A stretch of 64,000 nucleotides of DNA, from the NCBI GenBank assembly GCA_002788675.1, contig PFRS01000007.1:270-64269 (forward strand), in the 5' to 3' direction. Origin of the DNA: Candidatus Pacebacteria bacterium CG_4_9_14_0_2_um_filter_40_15. GTDB lineage: Bacteria; Patescibacteriota; Microgenomatia; UBA1400; PJMF01. Both the position numbers and the translations under genes were made by a program. Numbering within the stretch: position 1 is the stretch's first letter; each line of letters begins with the position of its first letter. Shown piece after piece: positions 939 through 7,914 of this stretch. The notes under the pieces were generated by a model. That model worked only from the letters and a program-made list of their open reading frames with translations. It searched no databases and was not told the origin of the DNA.

Positions 939-1140
939 TTCTTTATTGGAAAGATTTTATGCATATACTTGATGAGCATAGTAGAGTGAAGCCAGGGGTG
1001 TTTATTTTGAAATAATTATTGGTATATGTCGGCCGTGTGGGAAGATGTTGGAACTTTTTTAAAGATTAATTCTAAAAAATCCGCAACAAATTTGAACAAT
1101 GTTTAGATATATAGTGTTTTATACATTTCATATATAATCT

Positions 1141-1815
1141 TTGAATATGCAAGAAAATCATCCTCAAACCCAAGATAATAATGAAATCAAGACTGTTCAA
1201 TCAGCTATGAATCTAACGTCAACAAATCCAATTCTATATATTCTTACAGGTTTTGGGGTTGCAGTAGTTGCATTTGGATTAGGATACATGGTCAGAGGAT
1301 ATTCAGTAGATGAATATATGGTTGCACAAGAAATCATAGCTCCAGAACCTATGACTCAAGAAGAAACTGTCAGTCCACTTGTAATGATGGAAGAACCAGC
1401 TGAAGCTAATTTACCATCAACAATTCTTGAAAGTGAAGATTTTGTGTATACAGATGAACAACTTGGTTTTTCACTAACATTGCCACCGAAATATTCAGTT
1501 ATTGGAGCAGATATTATGGGTAATGATGATGACAAAAGTGTTTCAATTATGTTTTATTTACCAGTAAATAATCTAGCTGGTGAATCATCAAGAGAAGACC
1601 TTTTTATAATAACTAGATTTGCACCTGGGACTGATATTTCTCAGCATGGCCCTGGAGGACAAAAAATAACTACTACTAAAGATGGAAATGACTATTATTT
1701 CTATGCAAATCGTGCTATTGGACTGCATCCAGAGCAACCAGAATACGAAGTCTACTTTTCTTTGGGGGGAGATCAAGCCTTTGATCTAGTTAAGGATGGA
1801 TTTAAATTACTTTAA
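1141..1815 (+). CDS. hypothetical membrane-anchored protein (single N-terminal TM helix)
   Basis: ORF with a hydrophobic stretch ILYILTGFGVAVVAFGLGYMV near the N-terminus; no family recognised. Confidence 0.5.
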   Translation: MNMQENHPQTQDNNEIKTVQSAMNLTSTNPILYILTGFGVAVVAFGLGYMVRGYSVDEYMVAQEIIAPEPMTQEETVSPLVMMEEPAEANLPSTILESEDFVYTDEQLGFSLTLPPKYSVIGADIMGNDDDKSVSIMFYLPVNNLAGESSREDLFIITRFAPGTDISQHGPGGQKITTTKDGNDYYFYANRAIGLHPEQPEYEVYFSLGGDQAFDLVKDGFKLL

Positions 1816-1824
1816 GAATTTTAT

Positions 1825-2073
1825 ATGAATAACCAGATTATTTCATATTGTTTTGTTTGTAAAAATCTAGTAGAAATTGACGCAAATAATTTATCATTTT
1901 CTCAAGATATTGAAAGTAAAACTTTAAATGCAGGAGCTTTTCCAGCTAAATTTGATGTTGATAAAGGCATTTATTGTATAGATATTGAAGAAGTAGAAAA
2001 TAAAAATGAGATACTAGAGGCAGTTAAATCTCTATTGCTGGGTTATGGTGTTGTTATTTTAGAAATTAACTAA
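1825..2073 (+). CDS. small hypothetical protein (82 aa)
   Basis: ORF starts 10 bp after the preceding gene, same strand; no motif. Confidence 0.35.
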   Translation: MNNQIISYCFVCKNLVEIDANNLSFSQDIESKTLNAGAFPAKFDVDKGIYCIDIEEVENKNEILEAVKSLLLGYGVVILEIN

Positions 2074-2123
2074 ATAAATATTTTATTTTGCAGGTTTGTA
2101 TAAAAATGAATTTATATAGTACA

Positions 2124-2283
2124 TGTCGGGGAAACAGGACTCCTCGCTCGCTTCGCTCACTGCGGGATGCTCGTACTGTAGGAGGCTTACGCAATTTATA
2201 ACTCGCATAGCGACCCATAGGTTCAATCCTTTGCTTGCTCCAATACACAAAAAAACCCACCAAAAGGTGGATTTTTTCGTGTG
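2124..2283 (-). repeat. mini-element downstream of tRNA-Pro. Displaced copy of the tRNA-Pro 3' end (2124-2142, 19/19 identical to 2282-2300) is fused to the conserved motif CTCGCTTCGCTCAC (2147-2160, reverse complement of GTGAGCGAAGCGAG)
   Basis: Direct sequence comparison. The duplicated block starts at G57 of the T-loop and runs through the discriminator. The same 14-mer and the same architecture recur after tRNA-Gly. Confidence 0.7.
2250..2278. terminator. bidirectional hairpin plus T/A tracts (cccacc-aaaa-ggtgg-tttttt), terminates tRNA-Pro
   Basis: GC stem CCACC/GGTGG flanked by an A-run and a T-run, immediately 3' of tRNA-Pro on the minus strand. Confidence 0.6.
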
Positions 2284-2357
2284 TCGGGGAAACAGGACTC
2301 GAACCTGCGACCTCACGGTCCCAAACCGCGCACTCTAGCCATCTGAGCTATTCCCCG
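2284..2357 (-). tRNA. tRNA-Pro (anticodon TGG)
   Basis: Reverse complement folds as a cloverleaf. Acceptor stem CGGGGAA/TTCCCCG. D arm GCTC-AGATGGCTA-GAGT. Anticodon stem CGCGG/CCGTG with loop TTTGGGA. T arm GCAGG-TTCGAGT-CCTGT. Discriminator A. No encoded CCA. Confidence 0.85.
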
Positions 2358-2598
2358 AATTGTTATGTAAAGAACAAGATCAAATTATACCGCACTAATG
2401 AGTATTATTCGAGATGGTCTTTTGTACTATGACTCATGGTTGGTATCTTTTCGTAAGATATCTATCAGAGGTCGAGCAGGAATCAAGGCAAGTTTTTGCC
2501 AAAAGGCTTCTTGTTTTTTTTCTTTGTCTCTTCTCTCTTTCCAATCATCAAGATCTTTTTGGGAGATCTCTTGATGAGTTTCTTTTTGAGTCATTGTG

Positions 2599-2764: not shown

Positions 2765-5700
2765 ATGACTATGGATTCACGGCCTACGGCCGTACATACG
2801 ATCGAAAATACTCCGCCTCCTCCTCAAGAGCAGGAACATCCATTTATGGTTGGTGAACAACTTGGTGTTCTAAAGATTAATAATCCAGGTAGTGTTTTTG
2901 ATGGAATGGAGATTCCAATTCCAAGACAAAGACGAGAATTAAGTCGCAATGTGTCTGAAGCTTTGCTTTCTGAAATGCAGAATCCCGTACAACAACTCTT
3001 GCAGTTAGTGGAGAATGTAACCAATCAATCATTTGCACAAGGAGCTAAAACATATCAAGGTGAAAACAGAAAAATTCTCATACATAAGATACTTGAAAAC
3101 TTGTCTGATTCTCCTAAGTATAGAAAGCTACTCGAAAAATTTGCTAGTGGGAGCAGTGAATTTTCAAAAATAGTTATAAATGCGACTGTGTATATGTTAA
3201 GTAATACCAATTACTTGAAGGCAATTATTGGATTTGTTGTTGATGGTTGGGATAGTTCAAGAGCACCTCGAAGAATTCAAGACTTTGAGGATGCTATGCG
3301 CGAGGCAAGTTGGCAGGTGCAACAAGAACGCGATCCTGGTTTTTACCAGCAAACGCAAGCAGGACACTTTTCAGTTCAAACAGTACTTAATCCAGCAGTG
3401 GCATATGATCTTTTTTCATTTTATCAACTCACACAGCAGACAGAAACAGTGGGCTTAGTGCCCACTGAATCATTTGAATCTGATCATCCAAAGCAAATCC
3501 GACCAGGACAAGATGAAGAAGAGTATAAAAAAGAACAACTCGCACATTTAGAAAGATTGGAGGCTGAAAAGGCTGCTCGAGATGCTGCTGCTGCGCGTCC
3601 ACTTGCTCGTATAAAAAAGAAGCTGCAAGAGGCTGCTAATACATTTTCAGACCAGCAAAAGGAATTTCCTGAAGAGCCAGTGAGACAGGTTACATCTGAA
3701 GAATTTGAAGCAAAAGCTGCTGAGCGTCAACTTTTTGCAAATACCGAAAAACTTAATCGACTGGAAAAGGATTTTAGATCTGCAGTAGTGGGAGTAACCA
3801 TTGCAAATAAGATTGAGCTAATGCGAGAAGCAGCAGAGTTTCTCGAAACAGATTACGGTGAAGAAAAAGCAACACTCACAAGATATGAGCGACTTACAAA
3901 AAAATTAAAAGCAAAGTTATCTGGTAGACATTTTAGTCCTGAGTCAGCCGAAGCATTTTTACGATTACAAGAAGTGTATAAGTTTGATCCAAATAGTGAG
4001 GCTGTTAACCGATTACTTGATCAAGAATTTGGTTTAGATCAGGCTGAGATTACTGCATTAAATAGCACCAGAAATGGACGTAAAGATCTTGAAAAATTAA
4101 TCAGACGTGCTCGTGCAATAGTTACGCATGGTTTTACTAGAGATACCCAACATGGGATTGCTGAAGTTACTTTTGGTAAGGAACCAAGGCATTTTGTTAT
4201 ACTTGTTCATGGAGCACCTTACAAAATTGAATATTACAATAAGGATGGCTTTATAACTCAAGAATTGTTGATCAGAGCAGTACAAAATCTCGAATATACA
4301 CATGCTGATCAAAGTAAAGATCCAGAAGTACTCAAACAGAGACAAGTCATAGCTTCAATCTGGACTGAGTTAAGTTACAATCCTAAAAAAAATGAAATAG
4401 TAACTGATCCTCTTTTGTTAGACCAATTTATCAAAAAGTTTTTGAGGTCTGATTTAAAAAATACATCACAAGTTACACTGCAAATTGCTGATTCAATCAG
4501 GGCATTAATAAGTGCAGACTTTTCTGTCTCTGTGGGGGCAGATGAAGTTCCAGCTTTTGGAGCTGACGATCAAGCTGGGGAAATGCTCTCGTTGGTATTT
4601 GGAGGACAGCACATTGATATTTCAGATAATATTGGGGCGTTTTGTCAGCAATTTCTTGACTCTGATGAGATGAATAATAAACGAACACTATCAAACATTG
4701 CAAATTTTTTTGAAAAAGATAGTTGGGCGACACAATTACTTATAAAGATTAATTCACAATTTGATCATGGTTTGACTGATGGACGGGAAGCTCAAGAGAC
4801 TAATGCGGAATTATTACTGAGGTTATCTCAATATTTGGTAAGTGTGGGCAATGTTGCAGCAAGTAGAAAGATACTTCCAGAAGCACTACTCGCACAAAGT
4901 CTGAGTCTTGGTGTAATTGATGGTGAAATGGTGTTTGATGATGAAAAGGTTATTGCCGAGAATGTACACGAGTACAGTTATTCACTTCCGGACTTGCCCG
5001 AAGCCCTCGTTAACTCACCCAAAGCGTTAACTAAGGAGCTTGATAGAAGTGTCACTATTACTATGGAGAATGAGCTTAGAGATCGACTTGAAGCTATTGA
5101 TAGCATGAGTCTTAGGGAACTTTTTGACGGGGCAGGTACAATGGTTGATCGATTTGTAAATGTAACTGTTGATGTTCAGATGAATGCTATTAGAGAACCT
5201 GCATGGCAAGAACACTTGCGCTTGAATCCAGATATTCCATCCAAGAGTCCCAGGAAAATACAAGTTATCAAAGATACATTTTATATAGATTTGGAGACTG
5301 GTCTTCGAGACACAGTTAAAATTTTTCTAAATGGGGATCATGAGCTCATGAAGGAAGTACAAGAAAAATTACAGCTCAAAAAATATGATTTCTCAGCTGC
5401 GGCTCGGCTGTACGGGGTTGCTGATGTTTCAAAAATTTCTGCTGTTGAATATAGTCGATTTATGGCAGATCGTACTACATTGGCAGGAGAAAGCGATACA
5501 TTTAACATCCTTGCTCAATATGAACAAATTAATACTGTTGCACGAAAAGTAAAACGTAGGCTAACTGCAATTCAAAAACAAAAAAAAGAGGCTGAACATA
5601 CAAGAGATACTATTAGTGATGTTCTTGATATCAAGACTGTTTATGATGAGACTTACGCACGACTTAATTCAACTGAAGAGCAAGATTTATTACAGTTGTT

Positions 5701-6898
5701 AGATGAAATGAATGCGGCCCTTAAGCAAATTAATTTGGTGCTGACTCGATGTCTTTATGATAAAGAATTGTTTGCTACCGATGCCTCTGGGTCAGTGAGA
5801 GAAAGTGATCCGATTATAGCTCAAGTCCACAACCTACAATTAAACAGAATTAGTTCGGTCACCGCAATTCATTATGCTCAACTTATGGCGGACATGATGA
5901 ACATGATGAGTGATGATATGAGGCCTGCATTGCGTAGATTACCCACATCACGTAACATTGCTGAAATTCCTACGAGTAGGCTCGATTTTCACACTATGAC
6001 TGGGTATGCAGAAACAATGTTAAGTATGCAAAGCTTTGCAGAGATTTGGGCTGACACAAATAAAGATAGAACGGATGGGAAAGCACAAGTGCTTGAAGCA
6101 TTTAAGGATATAATTCAAGATTTTGTTGTAAATTATAGTATGCAGTTTCAAATAGGTGTTGATCAGGCACGAAAGCAAGTCAGTGATACGTCAGTATTAT
6201 CTGCTGGTACTAACAGATTTACTCAGTGGTTACTGGAAGTTTCTTTGCAATACACGGGTCTCACCGGGGTACTGGCTCAACAGCGCACGGGCAATATGAT
6301 TTCAGTGGTAGATTCAAATCCCGGTGTTGCTGGAGGGTATAGTTTACTGAGTCTGAGTGAAGGAGAGATGAGTGAAGCCGAGCATCTTACTGCGGTTTTA
6401 AATAGCAGCCATGGTCAAGATTCATTTCATACAGCTGGATCAAAAAATGTTGGTACTGCTATGGGAGTTACTCGAGTACACGATGGGGAAAATTCTCATT
6501 ATGCCTTTAAAGGTCGTAAGGCTGTCACTGATCAGCATCTAGATCAAATTGCCATGGCCATGCTGGGAGTAGAACGAAATGTAGCACGAGAATTAGTTGA
6601 AGGTATAAAACCTGGGTATTACTTTAATCAGCTGACTGTGCCGCAGCGCCGAGAGGCTCTCCATACAGCTAAGAGTGAGCTGGTTGAACAAACTAAATCT
6701 ATGTATTACTGGTACTTCTTTATTAACGTTATTACTAAAATGGATATGAATCAGGTGGGAACAAGGTATGATGAATGGGTGGTATCGGAAAGTTCACTCT
6801 CATTTATTAAATATGTTATGGAACAGGAACTGCCAAAGTATAACTTGAGTGAAGAGGCTATGGATTTCTATCAAAATGGTCCTAGATTGAACGCCTAG
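2765..6898 (+). CDS. giant orphan protein (1377 aa). No signal peptide, no P-loop, coiled-coil rich, no recognisable domain
   Basis: Single 4.1-kb ORF with no sizeable competing ORFs. Flanked by tRNA-Leu upstream and tRNA-Gly 30 bp downstream. Confidence 0.7.
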   Translation: MTMDSRPTAVHTIENTPPPPQEQEHPFMVGEQLGVLKINNPGSVFDGMEIPIPRQRRELSRNVSEALLSEMQNPVQQLLQLVENVTNQSFAQGAKTYQGENRKILIHKILENLSDSPKYRKLLEKFASGSSEFSKIVINATVYMLSNTNYLKAIIGFVVDGWDSSRAPRRIQDFEDAMREASWQVQQERDPGFYQQTQAGHFSVQTVLNPAVAYDLFSFYQLTQQTETVGLVPTESFESDHPKQIRPGQDEEEYKKEQLAHLERLEAEKAARDAAAARPLARIKKKLQEAANTFSDQQKEFPEEPVRQVTSEEFEAKAAERQLFANTEKLNRLEKDFRSAVVGVTIANKIELMREAAEFLETDYGEEKATLTRYERLTKKLKAKLSGRHFSPESAEAFLRLQEVYKFDPNSEAVNRLLDQEFGLDQAEITALNSTRNGRKDLEKLIRRARAIVTHGFTRDTQHGIAEVTFGKEPRHFVILVHGAPYKIEYYNKDGFITQELLIRAVQNLEYTHADQSKDPEVLKQRQVIASIWTELSYNPKKNEIVTDPLLLDQFIKKFLRSDLKNTSQVTLQIADSIRALISADFSVSVGADEVPAFGADDQAGEMLSLVFGGQHIDISDNIGAFCQQFLDSDEMNNKRTLSNIANFFEKDSWATQLLIKINSQFDHGLTDGREAQETNAELLLRLSQYLVSVGNVAASRKILPEALLAQSLSLGVIDGEMVFDDEKVIAENVHEYSYSLPDLPEALVNSPKALTKELDRSVTITMENELRDRLEAIDSMSLRELFDGAGTMVDRFVNVTVDVQMNAIREPAWQEHLRLNPDIPSKSPRKIQVIKDTFYIDLETGLRDTVKIFLNGDHELMKEVQEKLQLKKYDFSAAARLYGVADVSKISAVEYSRFMADRTTLAGESDTFNILAQYEQINTVARKVKRRLTAIQKQKKEAEHTRDTISDVLDIKTVYDETYARLNSTEEQDLLQLLDEMNAALKQINLVLTRCLYDKELFATDASGSVRESDPIIAQVHNLQLNRISSVTAIHYAQLMADMMNMMSDDMRPALRRLPTSRNIAEIPTSRLDFHTMTGYAETMLSMQSFAEIWADTNKDRTDGKAQVLEAFKDIIQDFVVNYSMQFQIGVDQARKQVSDTSVLSAGTNRFTQWLLEVSLQYTGLTGVLAQQRTGNMISVVDSNPGVAGGYSLLSLSEGEMSEAEHLTAVLNSSHGQDSFHTAGSKNVGTAMGVTRVHDGENSHYAFKGRKAVTDQHLDQIAMAMLGVERNVARELVEGIKPGYYFNQLTVPQRREALHTAKSELVEQTKSMYYWYFFINVITKMDMNQVGTRYDEWVVSESSLSFIKYVMEQELPKYNLSEEAMDFYQNGPRLNA

Positions 6899-6927: not shown

Positions 6928-6999
6928 GCGGGTATAGTACAACGGCTAGTATGACTGCCTTCCAAGCAGTAGATGGCGGTTCGATTCCGCTTACCCGCT
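6928..6999 (+). tRNA. tRNA-Gly (anticodon TCC)
   Basis: Acceptor GCGGGTA/TACCCGC. D stem GTAC/GTAT. Anticodon stem ACTGC/GCAGT with loop CTTCCAA. T arm GGCGG-TTCGATT-CCGC. Discriminator T. Confidence 0.85.
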
Positions 7000-7201
7000 C
7001 AGAAATGAAAATAGGCCGTCAGGCCTCTTTTTATTTCTGAATGGTGTAGATACGGAACTAATCTAGCGAGATGAATATCGAGCTAAGTTCTGACGGAGAG
7101 TGCGATAGCACCCGCCTAATGCATGTGAGCGAAGCGAGTCGTAGATTCCGCTTACCCGCTCAGAAAATAAAAAAGGCCGTGAGGCCTGTTTTTATTTTAG
7201 A
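7000..7201 (+). repeat. mini-element downstream of tRNA-Gly. About 103 bp of unique sequence (7041-7143) ends in GTGAGCGAAGCGAG (7125-7138). It is followed by a ~58-bp imperfect direct repeat (7144-7201) of the tRNA-Gly 3' end plus its terminator (6983-7040)
   Basis: 23/23 identity between 6983-7005 and 7144-7166. The second hairpin ggccgtgaggcc + tttttatttt is a near copy of the first with compensatory changes. Confidence 0.75.
7011..7040 (+). terminator. rho-independent terminator after tRNA-Gly (aggccgtcaggcct + ctttttatttc)
   Basis: Perfect GC hairpin followed by a T-run. Confidence 0.65.
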
Positions 7202-7914
7202 AGTTCTAACACTTTTTCTTCTGGCAGCTCAATGTATTTTTCACCATCTAAGTCACCAATATCAAATGGTCCCATTTTTGTGCGAACAAGTTCAATAGTG
7301 TCGTATCCTACTCTCTCAGTCATACGGCGAATTTGTCTGTTTCTGCCTTCTGTAATGGTTATTTCAATCCAGGTTTGGTTTTCTTCATGTGACAAAACAG
7401 TAACCTCTGCTGGTTTTGTGTAGCCATCTTTGAGTTTGACGCCTCTTCTGAGGTGATCAAGCGCTAAATTGGTGGGTTTACTACTGAGAAGAACTTCATA
7501 GGTTTTTGCTATTTCGTATCTTGGGTGAGTAAGTGTGTGAGCTAGCTCTCCATTATTGGTAACTAGCATAAGGCCTTCACTCTCTTGGTCAAGTCGTCCA
7601 ACTGGATAAACGCGTTCAGTTATTTTTGGTATGAGTTCAAGAACAGTTTTTCTGCCAACTTCATCTGAAGTAGTTGAAATATATCCCACTGGTTTATTTA
7701 TCAGAAAATAACGATGTTTTTGAGGTGCTGAGATAGGTTTTCCGTCGATTGAAACTTTGTCTTTGTGAGGGTTTACGCGTTGACCAATTTTTGCAACAGA
7801 ACCATTTACTGTTACGACTCCAGTTTCAATAAGAGCCTCGGATTTTCTTCGTGAAGCAATGCCAGCTCTAGCAAGGAAGAGTTGCAGCTTGATTGTTGAT
7901 GTATTGCTCGTCAT
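7192..7914 (-). CDS. 16S/23S rRNA pseudouridine synthase, RsuA/RluB family (S4 domain + PseudoU_synth_2)
   Basis: N-terminal S4-like RNA-binding region plus the catalytic motif region YPVGRLDQESEGLMLVTNNGELAH, typical of the RluB/RsuA family. Confidence 0.85.
   Translation of the reverse strand: MTSNTSTIKLQLFLARAGIASRRKSEALIETGVVTVNGSVAKIGQRVNPHKDKVSIDGKPISAPQKHRYFLINKPVGYISTTSDEVGRKTVLELIPKITERVYPVGRLDQESEGLMLVTNNGELAHTLTHPRYEIAKTYEVLLSSKPTNLALDHLRRGVKLKDGYTKPAEVTVLSHEENQTWIEITITEGRNRQIRRMTERVGYDTIELVRTKMGPFDIGDLDGEKYIELPEEKVLELLK

What the first reader, a model, noticed from the sequence alone, without database searches (positions are those of the whole stretch)
6977..7201. tRNA-Gly is followed by a ~140-bp mini-element bounded by a 58-bp direct repeat of the tRNA 3' end plus terminator
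Positions 6983-7040 (T-loop G57 through acceptor, discriminator, trailer and terminator hairpin) recur at 7144-7201 with about 6 substitutions. Those in the hairpin are compensatory, and the first 23 nt are identical. The ~103 bp in between are unique and end with GTGAGCGAAGCGAG directly abutting the displaced copy. A displaced tRNA 3' segment starting inside the T-loop is the classical attR scar of tyrosine-integrase elements that integrate at the T-loop crossover class. Here the whole element is far too small to encode an integrase. It is therefore either a miniature, trans-mobilised integrative element or the remnant of a deleted island.
Basis: seen in the sequence. Interest (0 to 1): 0.75.

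Follow-up and report, generated by a model that had tools for sequence, protein, structure and literature searches.

The report
Mini integrative elements behind tRNA genes
The duplicated tRNA-Gly tail is real and belongs to a family of about 160-bp gene-less DNA units that sit behind tRNA genes in a group of ultra-small (Patescibacteria) bacteria, and whose occupied and empty sites, tandem copies and mismatch with the host tree suggest tiny mobile elements moved by an enzyme encoded elsewhere.

Summary
tRNA-Gly(TCC) lies at 6928-7000, and 6983-7041 recurs at 7144-7202 (59 nt, 88%, first 23 nt identical).

It is not a one-off. tRNA-Pro (2283-2357, minus strand) carries the same architecture: terminator, about 100-nt core, the identical 14-mer GTGAGCGAAGCGAG, 4-5 nt, then the tRNA's own 3' part starting at T-loop G57.

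I found 11 such units in six related Pacebacteria-like assemblies plus one more distant Patescibacteria MAG, behind tRNA-Gly, tRNA-Pro and tRNA-Leu. Seven of the eight tRNA-linked units measure 155-161 bp.

- The Gly site is empty in every relative examined.
- The Pro site holds different variants, once two in tandem, and unit similarity contradicts the host tree.
- Two copies lie at non-tRNA sites; the clearer one shares only CCGACA with its target.
- No unit encodes a protein, and no recombinase was found among the 25 window ORFs scanned.
- Large serine recombinase genes abut tRNA-Pro or tRNA-His in three other Patescibacteria contigs.

Best reading: miniature, trans-mobilised, att-site-only integrative elements that regenerate the tRNA end and supply its terminator. 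The T-loop crossover and the tyrosine integrase are not shown. A functional RNA or DNA module remains a live rival.

The parts
6928..7000 (+). tRNA-Gly(TCC), intact; no encoded CCA (..GCT-CAG)
   Evidence: ARAGORN; Rfam 67 bits; identical tRNA in relatives
6983..7041 (+). Direct repeat copy 1: tRNA 3' part from T-loop G57, trailer and terminator 1 (hairpin 7013-7026)
7042..7116 (+). Gly-unit core; sequence unrelated to the Pro-type and Leu-type cores
   Evidence: no Rfam match
7117..7143 (+). Conserved right end TAATGCAT-GTGAGCGAAGCGAG-TCGTA (14-mer 7125-7138, contains the GCGAAGC mini-hairpin). 24 of 25 nt are identical to the right end of the tRNA-Leu unit in L044
7144..7202 (+). Direct repeat copy 2: displaced tRNA-Gly 3' piece (7144-7162) plus terminator 2 (hairpin 7174-7187). 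Its A/T-rich flanks loosely resemble the single terminator of L145, so it is probably the native one. It is shared with the convergent rsuA-like gene
7192..7914 (-). Pseudouridine synthase (S4 + PseudoU_synth_2) gene converging on the locus; used as the synteny anchor
2283..2357 (-). tRNA-Pro(TGG), intact; second tRNA in the window that carries a unit
2143..2282 (-). Pro unit: bidirectional terminator (hairpin 2257-2270), about 100-nt core, the same 14-mer (2147-2160), spacer CGAG (2143-2146)
2124..2142 (-). Second copy of the tRNA-Pro 3' part (GAGTCCTGTTTCCCCGACA, 19/19 identical, spacing 158)
1033..2123 (-). Extra 1.1-kb segment (two ORFs with no family match on the opposite strand), absent from the trailer of L170 and L171. 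It is bounded by CCGACATGTAC and CCGACATATAC
1027..1032 (-). Third CCGACA junction, followed by the orthologue of the tRNA-Pro trailer seen in L170 and L171

Best explanation
The 161-bp insert behind tRNA-Gly is one member of a family of miniature, non-coding, non-autonomous integrative elements. In effect each is an attachment site with nothing else.

Each unit consists of a copy of the 3' part of its target tRNA (from T-loop G57 to the discriminator plus CA), an intrinsic terminator, about 100 nt of type-specific core, and a conserved short hairpin (often TGAGCGAAGCGAG) placed 4-5 nt before the tRNA-like piece.

Inferred mechanism: a site-specific recombinase encoded elsewhere in the genome, or on a larger element, recombines the unit's tRNA-like segment with the 3' end of the tRNA gene. 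The tRNA stays intact and receives a terminator from the unit. A second copy of the tRNA 3' end is left at the far side. Repeated events give tandem units and push older segments outward.

Shown: the architecture, the copy family, empty and filled sites, the tandem array, copies at non-tRNA sites, disagreement with the host tree, and the absence of coding capacity.

Inferred: the recombination itself, the identity of the recombinase, and the exact crossover point. The crossover is probably at the extreme 3' end (CCGACA for tRNA-Pro).
For: Same architecture and identical 14-mer at two tRNAs in the window.

Eleven units in seven assemblies behind Gly, Pro and Leu. The eight tRNA-linked units measure 158, 159, 159, 156, 120, 160, 161 and 155 bp.

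The Gly site is empty in L138, L145, L170, L171/L135, L132, L133 and L142. L138 and L145 keep the same tRNA-Gly/rsuA context. The Gly unit's right end matches the Leu unit of a different MAG at 24 of 25 nt, while the rest of the two cores is unrelated.

There are two tandem units with three copies of the tRNA-Pro end in L171.

The host tree from two proteins is ((W,L170),L171),(L138,L145). Yet the window's Pro unit is 87% identical to that of L138 and only 77% to that of its sister L170, which carries another core type.

A unit in L171 is inserted after the CCGACA of an unrelated repeat and itself ends in ..CCCCGACA, so only 6 bp are shared with the target. The trailer after the last tRNA-like piece is orthologous in the window, L170 and L171.

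Large serine recombinase genes lie next to tRNA-Pro (L044, where a degenerate displaced tRNA piece lies 6.4 kb away, and L142) and next to tRNA-His (L172). tRNA genes are therefore used as integration sites in this phylum.
Against: - No recombinase was found in the units, in their cargo neighbours, or among the 25 window ORFs scanned. Fewer than half of the window's ORFs of 110 aa or more were scanned, and the rest of the genome could not be searched.
- No circular form or recombination junction has been observed.
- A 160-bp double-stranded circle is an awkward substrate for known integrases.
- At tRNA-Gly the repeat extends 35 nt beyond the tRNA into a terminator that resembles the native one (88%). 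A foreign attP would not be expected to carry that; it needs an extra step such as gene conversion or local capture.
- The Pro units are well conserved between hosts whose other intergenic DNA is unalignable. Purifying selection on a function would also explain this.
- The exact 14-mer also turns up in unrelated repeats of other phyla, so it is not diagnostic on its own.
Confidence: 0.5

Rival explanations
1. The units are functional, host-beneficial modules: a tRNA-linked non-coding RNA or a DNA site such as a terminator/insulator with a tRNA-like 3' handle. They would be inherited mostly vertically and copied occasionally to other tRNAs by ordinary recombination through the conserved T-loop and 3'-end sequences.
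For: The Pro unit is 69-87% identical across hosts whose large neighbouring protein is only 38-59% identical and whose other spacers do not align. The window's tRNA-like piece is 19/19 identical to tRNA-Pro. The small hairpin keeps its shape with different sequences (UGAGC/GCGAG, CUUGC/GCAAG, GGGC/GCCC, UGAGU/ACGAA). Several invariant G-U pairs favour the tRNA-sense strand. Length is strongly constrained.
Against: No Rfam family matches even at permissive thresholds. Covariation is not significant (3 pairs with changes on both sides, reached by 70 of 500 shuffles). A closing helix between the core's 5' end and the tRNA piece does not beat shuffles. Cores of the Gly, Leu and Pro types are unrelated in sequence. 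No convincing promoter was found. The distribution disagrees with the host tree, and the Gly unit is lineage-specific.
Confidence: 0.2
2. The units are decay remnants. Larger integrated islands or prophages at tRNA-Gly and tRNA-Pro lost their interior, leaving only their two ends between the direct repeats.
For: Accretion and decay at tRNA sites is well known (tycheposons, 10.1101/2020.12.28.424599; Islander, PMC4383910). The tRNA-Pro downstream region is a mosaic that differs between relatives. Full-length recombinase-bearing elements occupy tRNA-Pro in L044 and L142.
Against: Random deletions would not give 155-161 bp in seven of eight tRNA-linked units at three different tRNAs. There is no trace of recombinase coding sequence in the cores (tblastn). 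The L044 recombinase element has neither the terminator nor the 14-mer at its ends.
Confidence: 0.13
3. The units are derivatives of a single-strand (HUH-type, IS200/IS605-like or rolling-circle) transposon. It would insert 3' of a short target such as CCGACA, guided by hairpins near each end (the terminator hairpin on the left, the GCGAAGC hairpin on the right).
For: There is a hairpin about 10 nt inside the left junction and a very stable GCGAAGC-type mini-hairpin near the right end. Insertion occurs directly after CCGACA at tRNA and non-tRNA sites, with the unit itself ending in CCGACA. There are no terminal inverted repeats.
Against: No TnpA- or TnpB-like gene was seen. The 19-59-nt repeats that match each specific tRNA are not a feature of that family. 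The Gly and Leu units would need different targets.
Confidence: 0.07
4. A simple local tandem duplication of the tRNA-Gly 3' end, with unrelated filler between the copies.
For: The Gly repeat includes the local terminator. All five population contigs are identical.
Against: The same 14-mer, spacing and G57 start occur at tRNA-Pro in the same window and at tRNA-Leu in another genome. Empty sites exist in relatives.
Confidence: 0.03

Closest known systems
tRNA-integrating genomic islands and prophages (as catalogued by Islander; tycheposons of Prochlorococcus)
   Same: An intact tRNA is regenerated, a displaced copy of the tRNA 3' end marks the far boundary, several segments sit in tandem at one tRNA, and content differs between relatives.
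   Different: These units are 120-161 bp with no gene at all, let alone an integrase. They have a constant length and a shared terminal hairpin across different target tRNAs.
CIMEs (cis-mobilisable elements flanked by att sites but lacking recombination genes, described in Streptococcus thermophilus; from my own knowledge)
   Same: Integrase-less DNA bounded by attL and attR, thought to be moved by a related element's integrase and to take part in tandem accretion.
   Different: CIMEs are kilobases long and are recognisable deletion derivatives of ICEs. Here there is no homology to any autonomous element, the size is about 160 bp, and the targets are multiple tRNAs.
ORF-less integron cassettes with attC sites
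   Same: Small non-coding units and gene-bearing segments are lined up at one site. Each ends in a structured recombination module, and the recombinase is not inside the unit.
   Different: There are no RYYYAAC/GTTRRRY core sites, no intI next to the array, and the array is anchored on a tRNA 3' end.
MITEs and PATEs (miniature derivatives of insertion sequences)
   Same: Miniature, non-coding, multi-copy and dependent on an enzyme supplied in trans.
   Different: There are no terminal inverted repeats. The flanking repeats are 6-59 nt of target-specific tRNA sequence rather than a fixed short target duplication.
SCC and pseudo-SCC elements at rlmH (large serine recombinases CcrAB; from my own knowledge)
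   Same: Integration at the 3' end of a conserved gene that stays intact, direct repeats, tandem composites, and recombinase-less pseudo-elements. Large serine recombinases lie at tRNA genes in other Patescibacteria contigs.
   Different: Different target and size. No link between the serine recombinases seen here and the mini-units has been shown.

Membership tests
Integrase-mediated tRNA-integrating island | Direct repeats formed by the tRNA 3' part, with an intact tRNA at one end | tested here: met
   repeats of 19-59 nt; all tRNAs score as intact.
Integrase-mediated tRNA-integrating island | Integrase gene inside the element | tested here: not met
   The units are 120-161 bp and non-coding. 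Pfam found no recombinase in 25 window ORFs or in the neighbouring cargo, and NCBIfam found none in the five ORFs around the tRNA-Pro locus.
Integrase-mediated tRNA-integrating island | Empty site in related genomes | tested here: met
   tRNA-Gly is followed by a single terminator in L138 and L145, and there is no unit in L170, L171, L132, L133, L135 or L142.
   Identity starts at G57/A58 in all tRNA-linked copies. But the non-tRNA insertion in L171 shares only CCGACA with its target.
Integrase-mediated tRNA-integrating island | Excision and integration demonstrated (circle or attB junctions) | not testable with these tools
   No read-level data were available.
MITE | Terminal inverted repeats and a short fixed target-site duplication | tested here: not met
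   No inverted repeats at the unit ends. Flanking repeats are 6-59 nt.
Integron cassette / attC | R''/R' core sites (RYYYAAC ... GTTRRRY) and an adjacent intI | tested here: not met
   The junctions read ..CGAG-N-(G)ANTCC and ..CCGACA. No integrase was found next to the array.
Known structured RNA family (Rfam 15) | Covariance-model match | tested here: not met
   Only tRNAs reach gathering score. Permissive scans of both units give only terminator-driven noise.
IS200/IS605-type miniature derivative (PATE) | Subterminal hairpins, insertion 3' of a short target, and a TnpA in the genome | tested here: inconclusive
   Hairpins and insertion after CCGACA are compatible. No transposase was seen, but the full genome is not available.
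Pseudo-tRNA / degraded second tRNA gene | The core is homologous to the 5' two-thirds of the tRNA | tested here: not met
   Local alignment of each core with the 5' 56 nt of its tRNA is no better than shuffles (p = 0.70-0.98).

The most novel reading that the evidence does not exclude
The tRNA-Pro locus of these Patescibacteria is a tRNA-anchored cassette array, an integron-like system. Gene-bearing and gene-less segments each end in a mimic of the tRNA 3' end (..CCGACA) preceded by a structured module, and are shuffled by an unidentified chromosomal recombinase. The 160-bp units would be its empty cassettes, able to colonise other tRNAs such as Gly and Leu.
Probability: 0.15. Interest if true: 0.85.

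Novelty: new variant of a known kind. Interest (0 to 1): 0.6.

Why it matters
If the units are mobile, they are to integrative islands what MITEs are to insertion sequences: about 160 bp of attachment site that still rebuilds the target tRNA and brings its terminator. That would set a lower size limit for site-specific integrative elements. It would also give a compact natural substrate for finding the recombinase and its rules of target recognition.

It would further show that the reduced genomes of Patescibacteria, thought to be poor in mobile DNA, keep active integration hot spots at tRNA genes.

Practically, such units create partial tRNA copies and duplicated terminators. These can mislead island-finding and tRNA-annotation software.

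Tried and rejected
1. Phage origin of the window: megablast of the locus against the phage collection found nothing. The genes are housekeeping genes of a Pacebacteria-like MAG from Crystal Geyser.

2. Exact-motif scans of public collections.
- The genome scan was mostly chance or high-GC hits plus one true copy, L044.
- The viral scan gave nothing relevant.
- The first metagenome scan (TAATGCA + 14-mer) found nothing, not even the source organism.
- The second gave 23 loci, none next to a tRNA. It showed that the 14-mer also sits inside unrelated hairpin repeats.

3. Core as a degraded tRNA: rejected.

4. Closing helix between the core's 5' end and the tRNA piece (a minihelix idea): not better than shuffles.

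5. Hairpin covariation: suggestive by eye but not significant.

6. Antisense small RNA with a promoter beyond the tRNA piece: possible -10-like hexamers at the Pro loci, but no room for a promoter at the Gly locus and no scan support.

7. Small protein on the opposite strand of the Pro unit (MSGKQD...): the frame is open in the window, L138 and L171 but broken in L145, and no ORF of 40 aa or more is present in the Gly unit. Rejected.

8. Core derived from the 3' end of a serine recombinase gene: tblastn matches only the tRNA antisense.

9. The 1377-aa neighbour as a hidden recombinase: no Pfam, NCBIfam or PDB similarity. This is not evidence either way.

10. Group I introns of Patescibacteria tRNAs (PMC13011429): these sit in the anticodon loop and are unrelated.

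Full report
**1. The observation**

ARAGORN and Rfam place an intact tRNA-Gly(TCC) at 6928-7000. The repeat finder reports a single direct-repeat family in the region: 6983-7041 and 7144-7202, 59 nt, 88% identical, 161 bp apart.
- The first 23 nt are identical. The 19-nt tRNA part occurs exactly twice in the window, against none expected.
- The repeat begins at T-loop G57.
- Each copy contains a terminator hairpin that scores on both strands.
- The 'compensatory' changes lie in the A/T-rich extension of the stem and only partly preserve it (-24.3 versus -15.6 kcal/mol).
- The second terminator overlaps the stop codon of a convergent pseudouridine synthase gene.

**2. It is not unique**

The exact 14-mer occurs once more in the window, at 2147-2160 on the minus strand. 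There it sits 4 nt upstream of a perfect 19-nt second copy of the 3' part of tRNA-Pro(TGG), which is at 2283-2357 on the minus strand. The spacing is 158 bp, and the copy again starts at G57.

The two loci share this plan: tRNA, bidirectional terminator, about 100 nt, 14-mer, 4-5 nt, then the 3' part of that same tRNA. The other four tRNAs of the window have no such unit.

**3. Source and relatives**

The window belongs to a Pacebacteria-like (Patescibacteria) population from Crystal Geyser (GCA_002790935.1 and JGI metagenomes). Five population contigs are identical at the Gly locus.

I fetched related contigs through homologues of the pseudouridine synthase and of the 1377-aa neighbouring protein: L132-L146, L170, L171 and L172-L176. 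Pairwise identities of both proteins give the host tree ((W,L170),L171),(L138,L145), with L142 outside.

**4. Empty and filled sites**
- tRNA-Gly: it is followed by one terminator and then rsuA in L138 and in L145/L146, the same context as the window without the 161 bp. No unit is present in L170, L171/L135, L132, L133 or L142. The Gly unit is therefore confined to the window's lineage, and a gain is the most parsimonious reading.
- tRNA-Pro: it carries a unit in the window, L138, L145 and L170, and two units in tandem in L171, giving three copies of the tRNA-Pro end.
- tRNA-Leu: it carries a unit in a separate Patescibacteria MAG (L044) but not in the window or its close relatives.
- The eight tRNA-linked units measure 158, 159, 159, 156, 120, 160, 161 and 155 bp.

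**5. What is conserved**
- Pro-type cores are homologous to one another and come in variants. These combine two terminator types with two core types.
- The Gly and Leu units share only their right end (TAATGCA(T)GTGAGCGAAGCGAGTCG, 24 of 25 nt). The remainder of their cores is unrelated (p = 0.8).
- Across all types, only the position of the terminator and the position of the 14-mer are shared.
- The 14-mer region forms a small hairpin whose arms change between copies: UGAGC/GCGAG with tandem G·A, CUUGC/GCAAG, GGGC/GCCC and UGAGU/ACGAA. A formal count is not significant, since 3 pairs with changes on both sides were reached by 70 of 500 shuffles.
- No Rfam family matches.
- The cores are not degraded tRNA.
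- A closing helix is not supported.

**6. Signs of mobility**
- The window's Pro unit is 87% identical to that of L138, a host in the other clade. It is only 77% identical to that of its sister L170, which carries the other core type.
- A profile of Pro cores found three further copies a few kb downstream of tRNA-Pro, none next to an intact tRNA: L145 15930-16080, L171 about 1455-1620, and a partial one in L138.
- The L171 copy lies immediately after the CCGACA that ends an unrelated 120-nt repeat ('M2'), and it ends with ..CCCCGACA itself. Unit and target therefore share only 6 bp.
- In the window, a third CCGACA junction (1027-1032, minus strand) is followed by the orthologue of the trailer that follows the unit directly in L170 and L171. 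So 1033-2123 is an extra 1.1-kb segment bounded by CCGACAT(G/A)TAC.
- The region downstream of tRNA-Pro is thus a mosaic of segments joined at tRNA-3'-end-like sequences. Tandem integrations separated by partial tRNA copies are described for tRNA-linked islands.

**7. Recombinases**

None of the 25 window ORFs scanned, nor the cargo ORFs in the relatives, has a recombinase domain. Fewer than half of the window's ORFs of 110 aa or more were scanned.

In L044 a 536-aa large serine recombinase gene converges on and overlaps the 3' part of tRNA-Pro. A degenerate displaced tRNA-Pro piece lies 6.4 kb away. L142 has a homologous gene end beside its tRNA-Pro. L172 has one overlapping tRNA-His.

These elements show that tRNA genes are integration targets in this phylum. 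They carry neither the terminator nor the 14-mer, and the window has no such gene. The enzyme that would move the mini-units is unknown.

**8. Interpretation**

The best-supported reading (about 0.5) is a family of miniature, trans-mobilised, att-site-only integrative elements. They recombine with the 3' end of a tRNA gene, keep the tRNA intact, and supply its terminator. The one informative non-tRNA insertion suggests that exchange occurs at the extreme 3' end rather than in the T-loop. This remains inferred.

The main difficulty is the Gly unit. Its repeat runs into a terminator resembling the native one, which requires local capture or gene conversion.

Rivals:
- A functional RNA or DNA module (0.2). 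This is favoured by conservation and constant length, but weakened by unrelated cores, lack of covariation and lack of a promoter.
- Deletion remnants (0.13). This is contradicted by the uniform length.
- A single-strand transposon derivative (0.07).
- A plain tandem duplication (0.03). This is contradicted by the second and third loci.

**9. Novelty**

Integrase-less att-flanked elements and accretion at tRNA genes are known. To my knowledge, a conserved 160-bp gene-less form, present at several tRNAs and in several genomes of Patescibacteria, is not. Two full-text searches found nothing similar. I rate it a new variant of a known kind, with moderate to high interest.

Noticed in passing
window 2765-6898 (+): A 1377-aa protein with no Pfam, NCBIfam or PDB similarity. 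It evolves fast (38-59% identity where RsuA is 69-85%). In five lineages it is flanked by tRNA-Leu/tRNA-Pro (divergent) on one side and tRNA-Gly (30 nt downstream) on the other, which are the two tRNAs that carry units in the window.
   Followed up: partly
window 2427-2594 (-): A 55-aa ORF (MTQKETHQEISQKDLDDW...) starts 4 nt after tRNA-Leu and fills the spacer to tRNA-Pro. Lysine/glutamate-rich counterparts occur in L138, L171 and L142. L145 and L170 have a terminator hairpin there instead.
   Followed up: no
L044 5635-7245 (+); L142 17250-17387; L172 1257-2828 (+): Large serine recombinase genes whose 3' ends overlap the 3' part of a tRNA gene on the opposite strand (tRNA-Pro twice, tRNA-His once). 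The last 17 residues are encoded by the tRNA antisense.
   Followed up: partly
L171 1613-1737 (-), L145 13393-13509 (+), L170 4740-4863 (-), L171 1015-1059 (-): A second intergenic repeat of about 120 nt ('M2') ending ..AAACCGTTCCACAACTCCGACA, usually followed by the same type-B terminator as the units. Its opposite strand has a 39-41-codon frame (MSELWNGLIT..). Whether it is coding is unclear.
   Followed up: partly
L026, L037, L085, L086, L116 (genome scan); L154, L157, L160, L162, L165 (metagenome scan): The exact 14-mer also sits in unrelated repeats. One is the palindromic GTCATTCTGA-GTGAGCGAAGCGAG-CGAAGAATC type in Chloroflexi, Magasanikiibacteria and Marinicella. The other is an attC-like repeat (..TAACGTTTGGTTAAGGGGCGGGC..CAGTGAGCGAAGCGAGCGGTTTGAATC..GTTAG) in unidentified metagenome contigs.
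   Followed up: no
window 6998-7003 versus L132, L133, L135, L138, L170, L171: tRNA-Gly has the encoded 3' CCA in six relatives (..GCTCCA), but reads ..GCTCAG in both copies in the window. tRNA-Pro likewise reads ..GACA where units are present and ..GACCA in L044 and L142.
   Followed up: partly
window 7120-7165 (+): In the Gly unit only, the 14-mer is an inverted repeat of the adjacent tRNA piece (UGAGCG/CGCUCA and AAGCG/CGCUU). This gives a hairpin of -16.1 kcal/mol (z = -3.2). The equivalent Pro region does not fold (z = -0.2). The 14-mer also matches the reverse complement of the tRNA-Arg 3' end at 11 of 14 positions.
   Followed up: partly
L138 13605-14602 (+): An aminoglycoside-phosphotransferase-family gene lies between the complete Pro unit and a partial second core that starts at its stop codon, like a cassette framed by unit sequences.
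   Followed up: no
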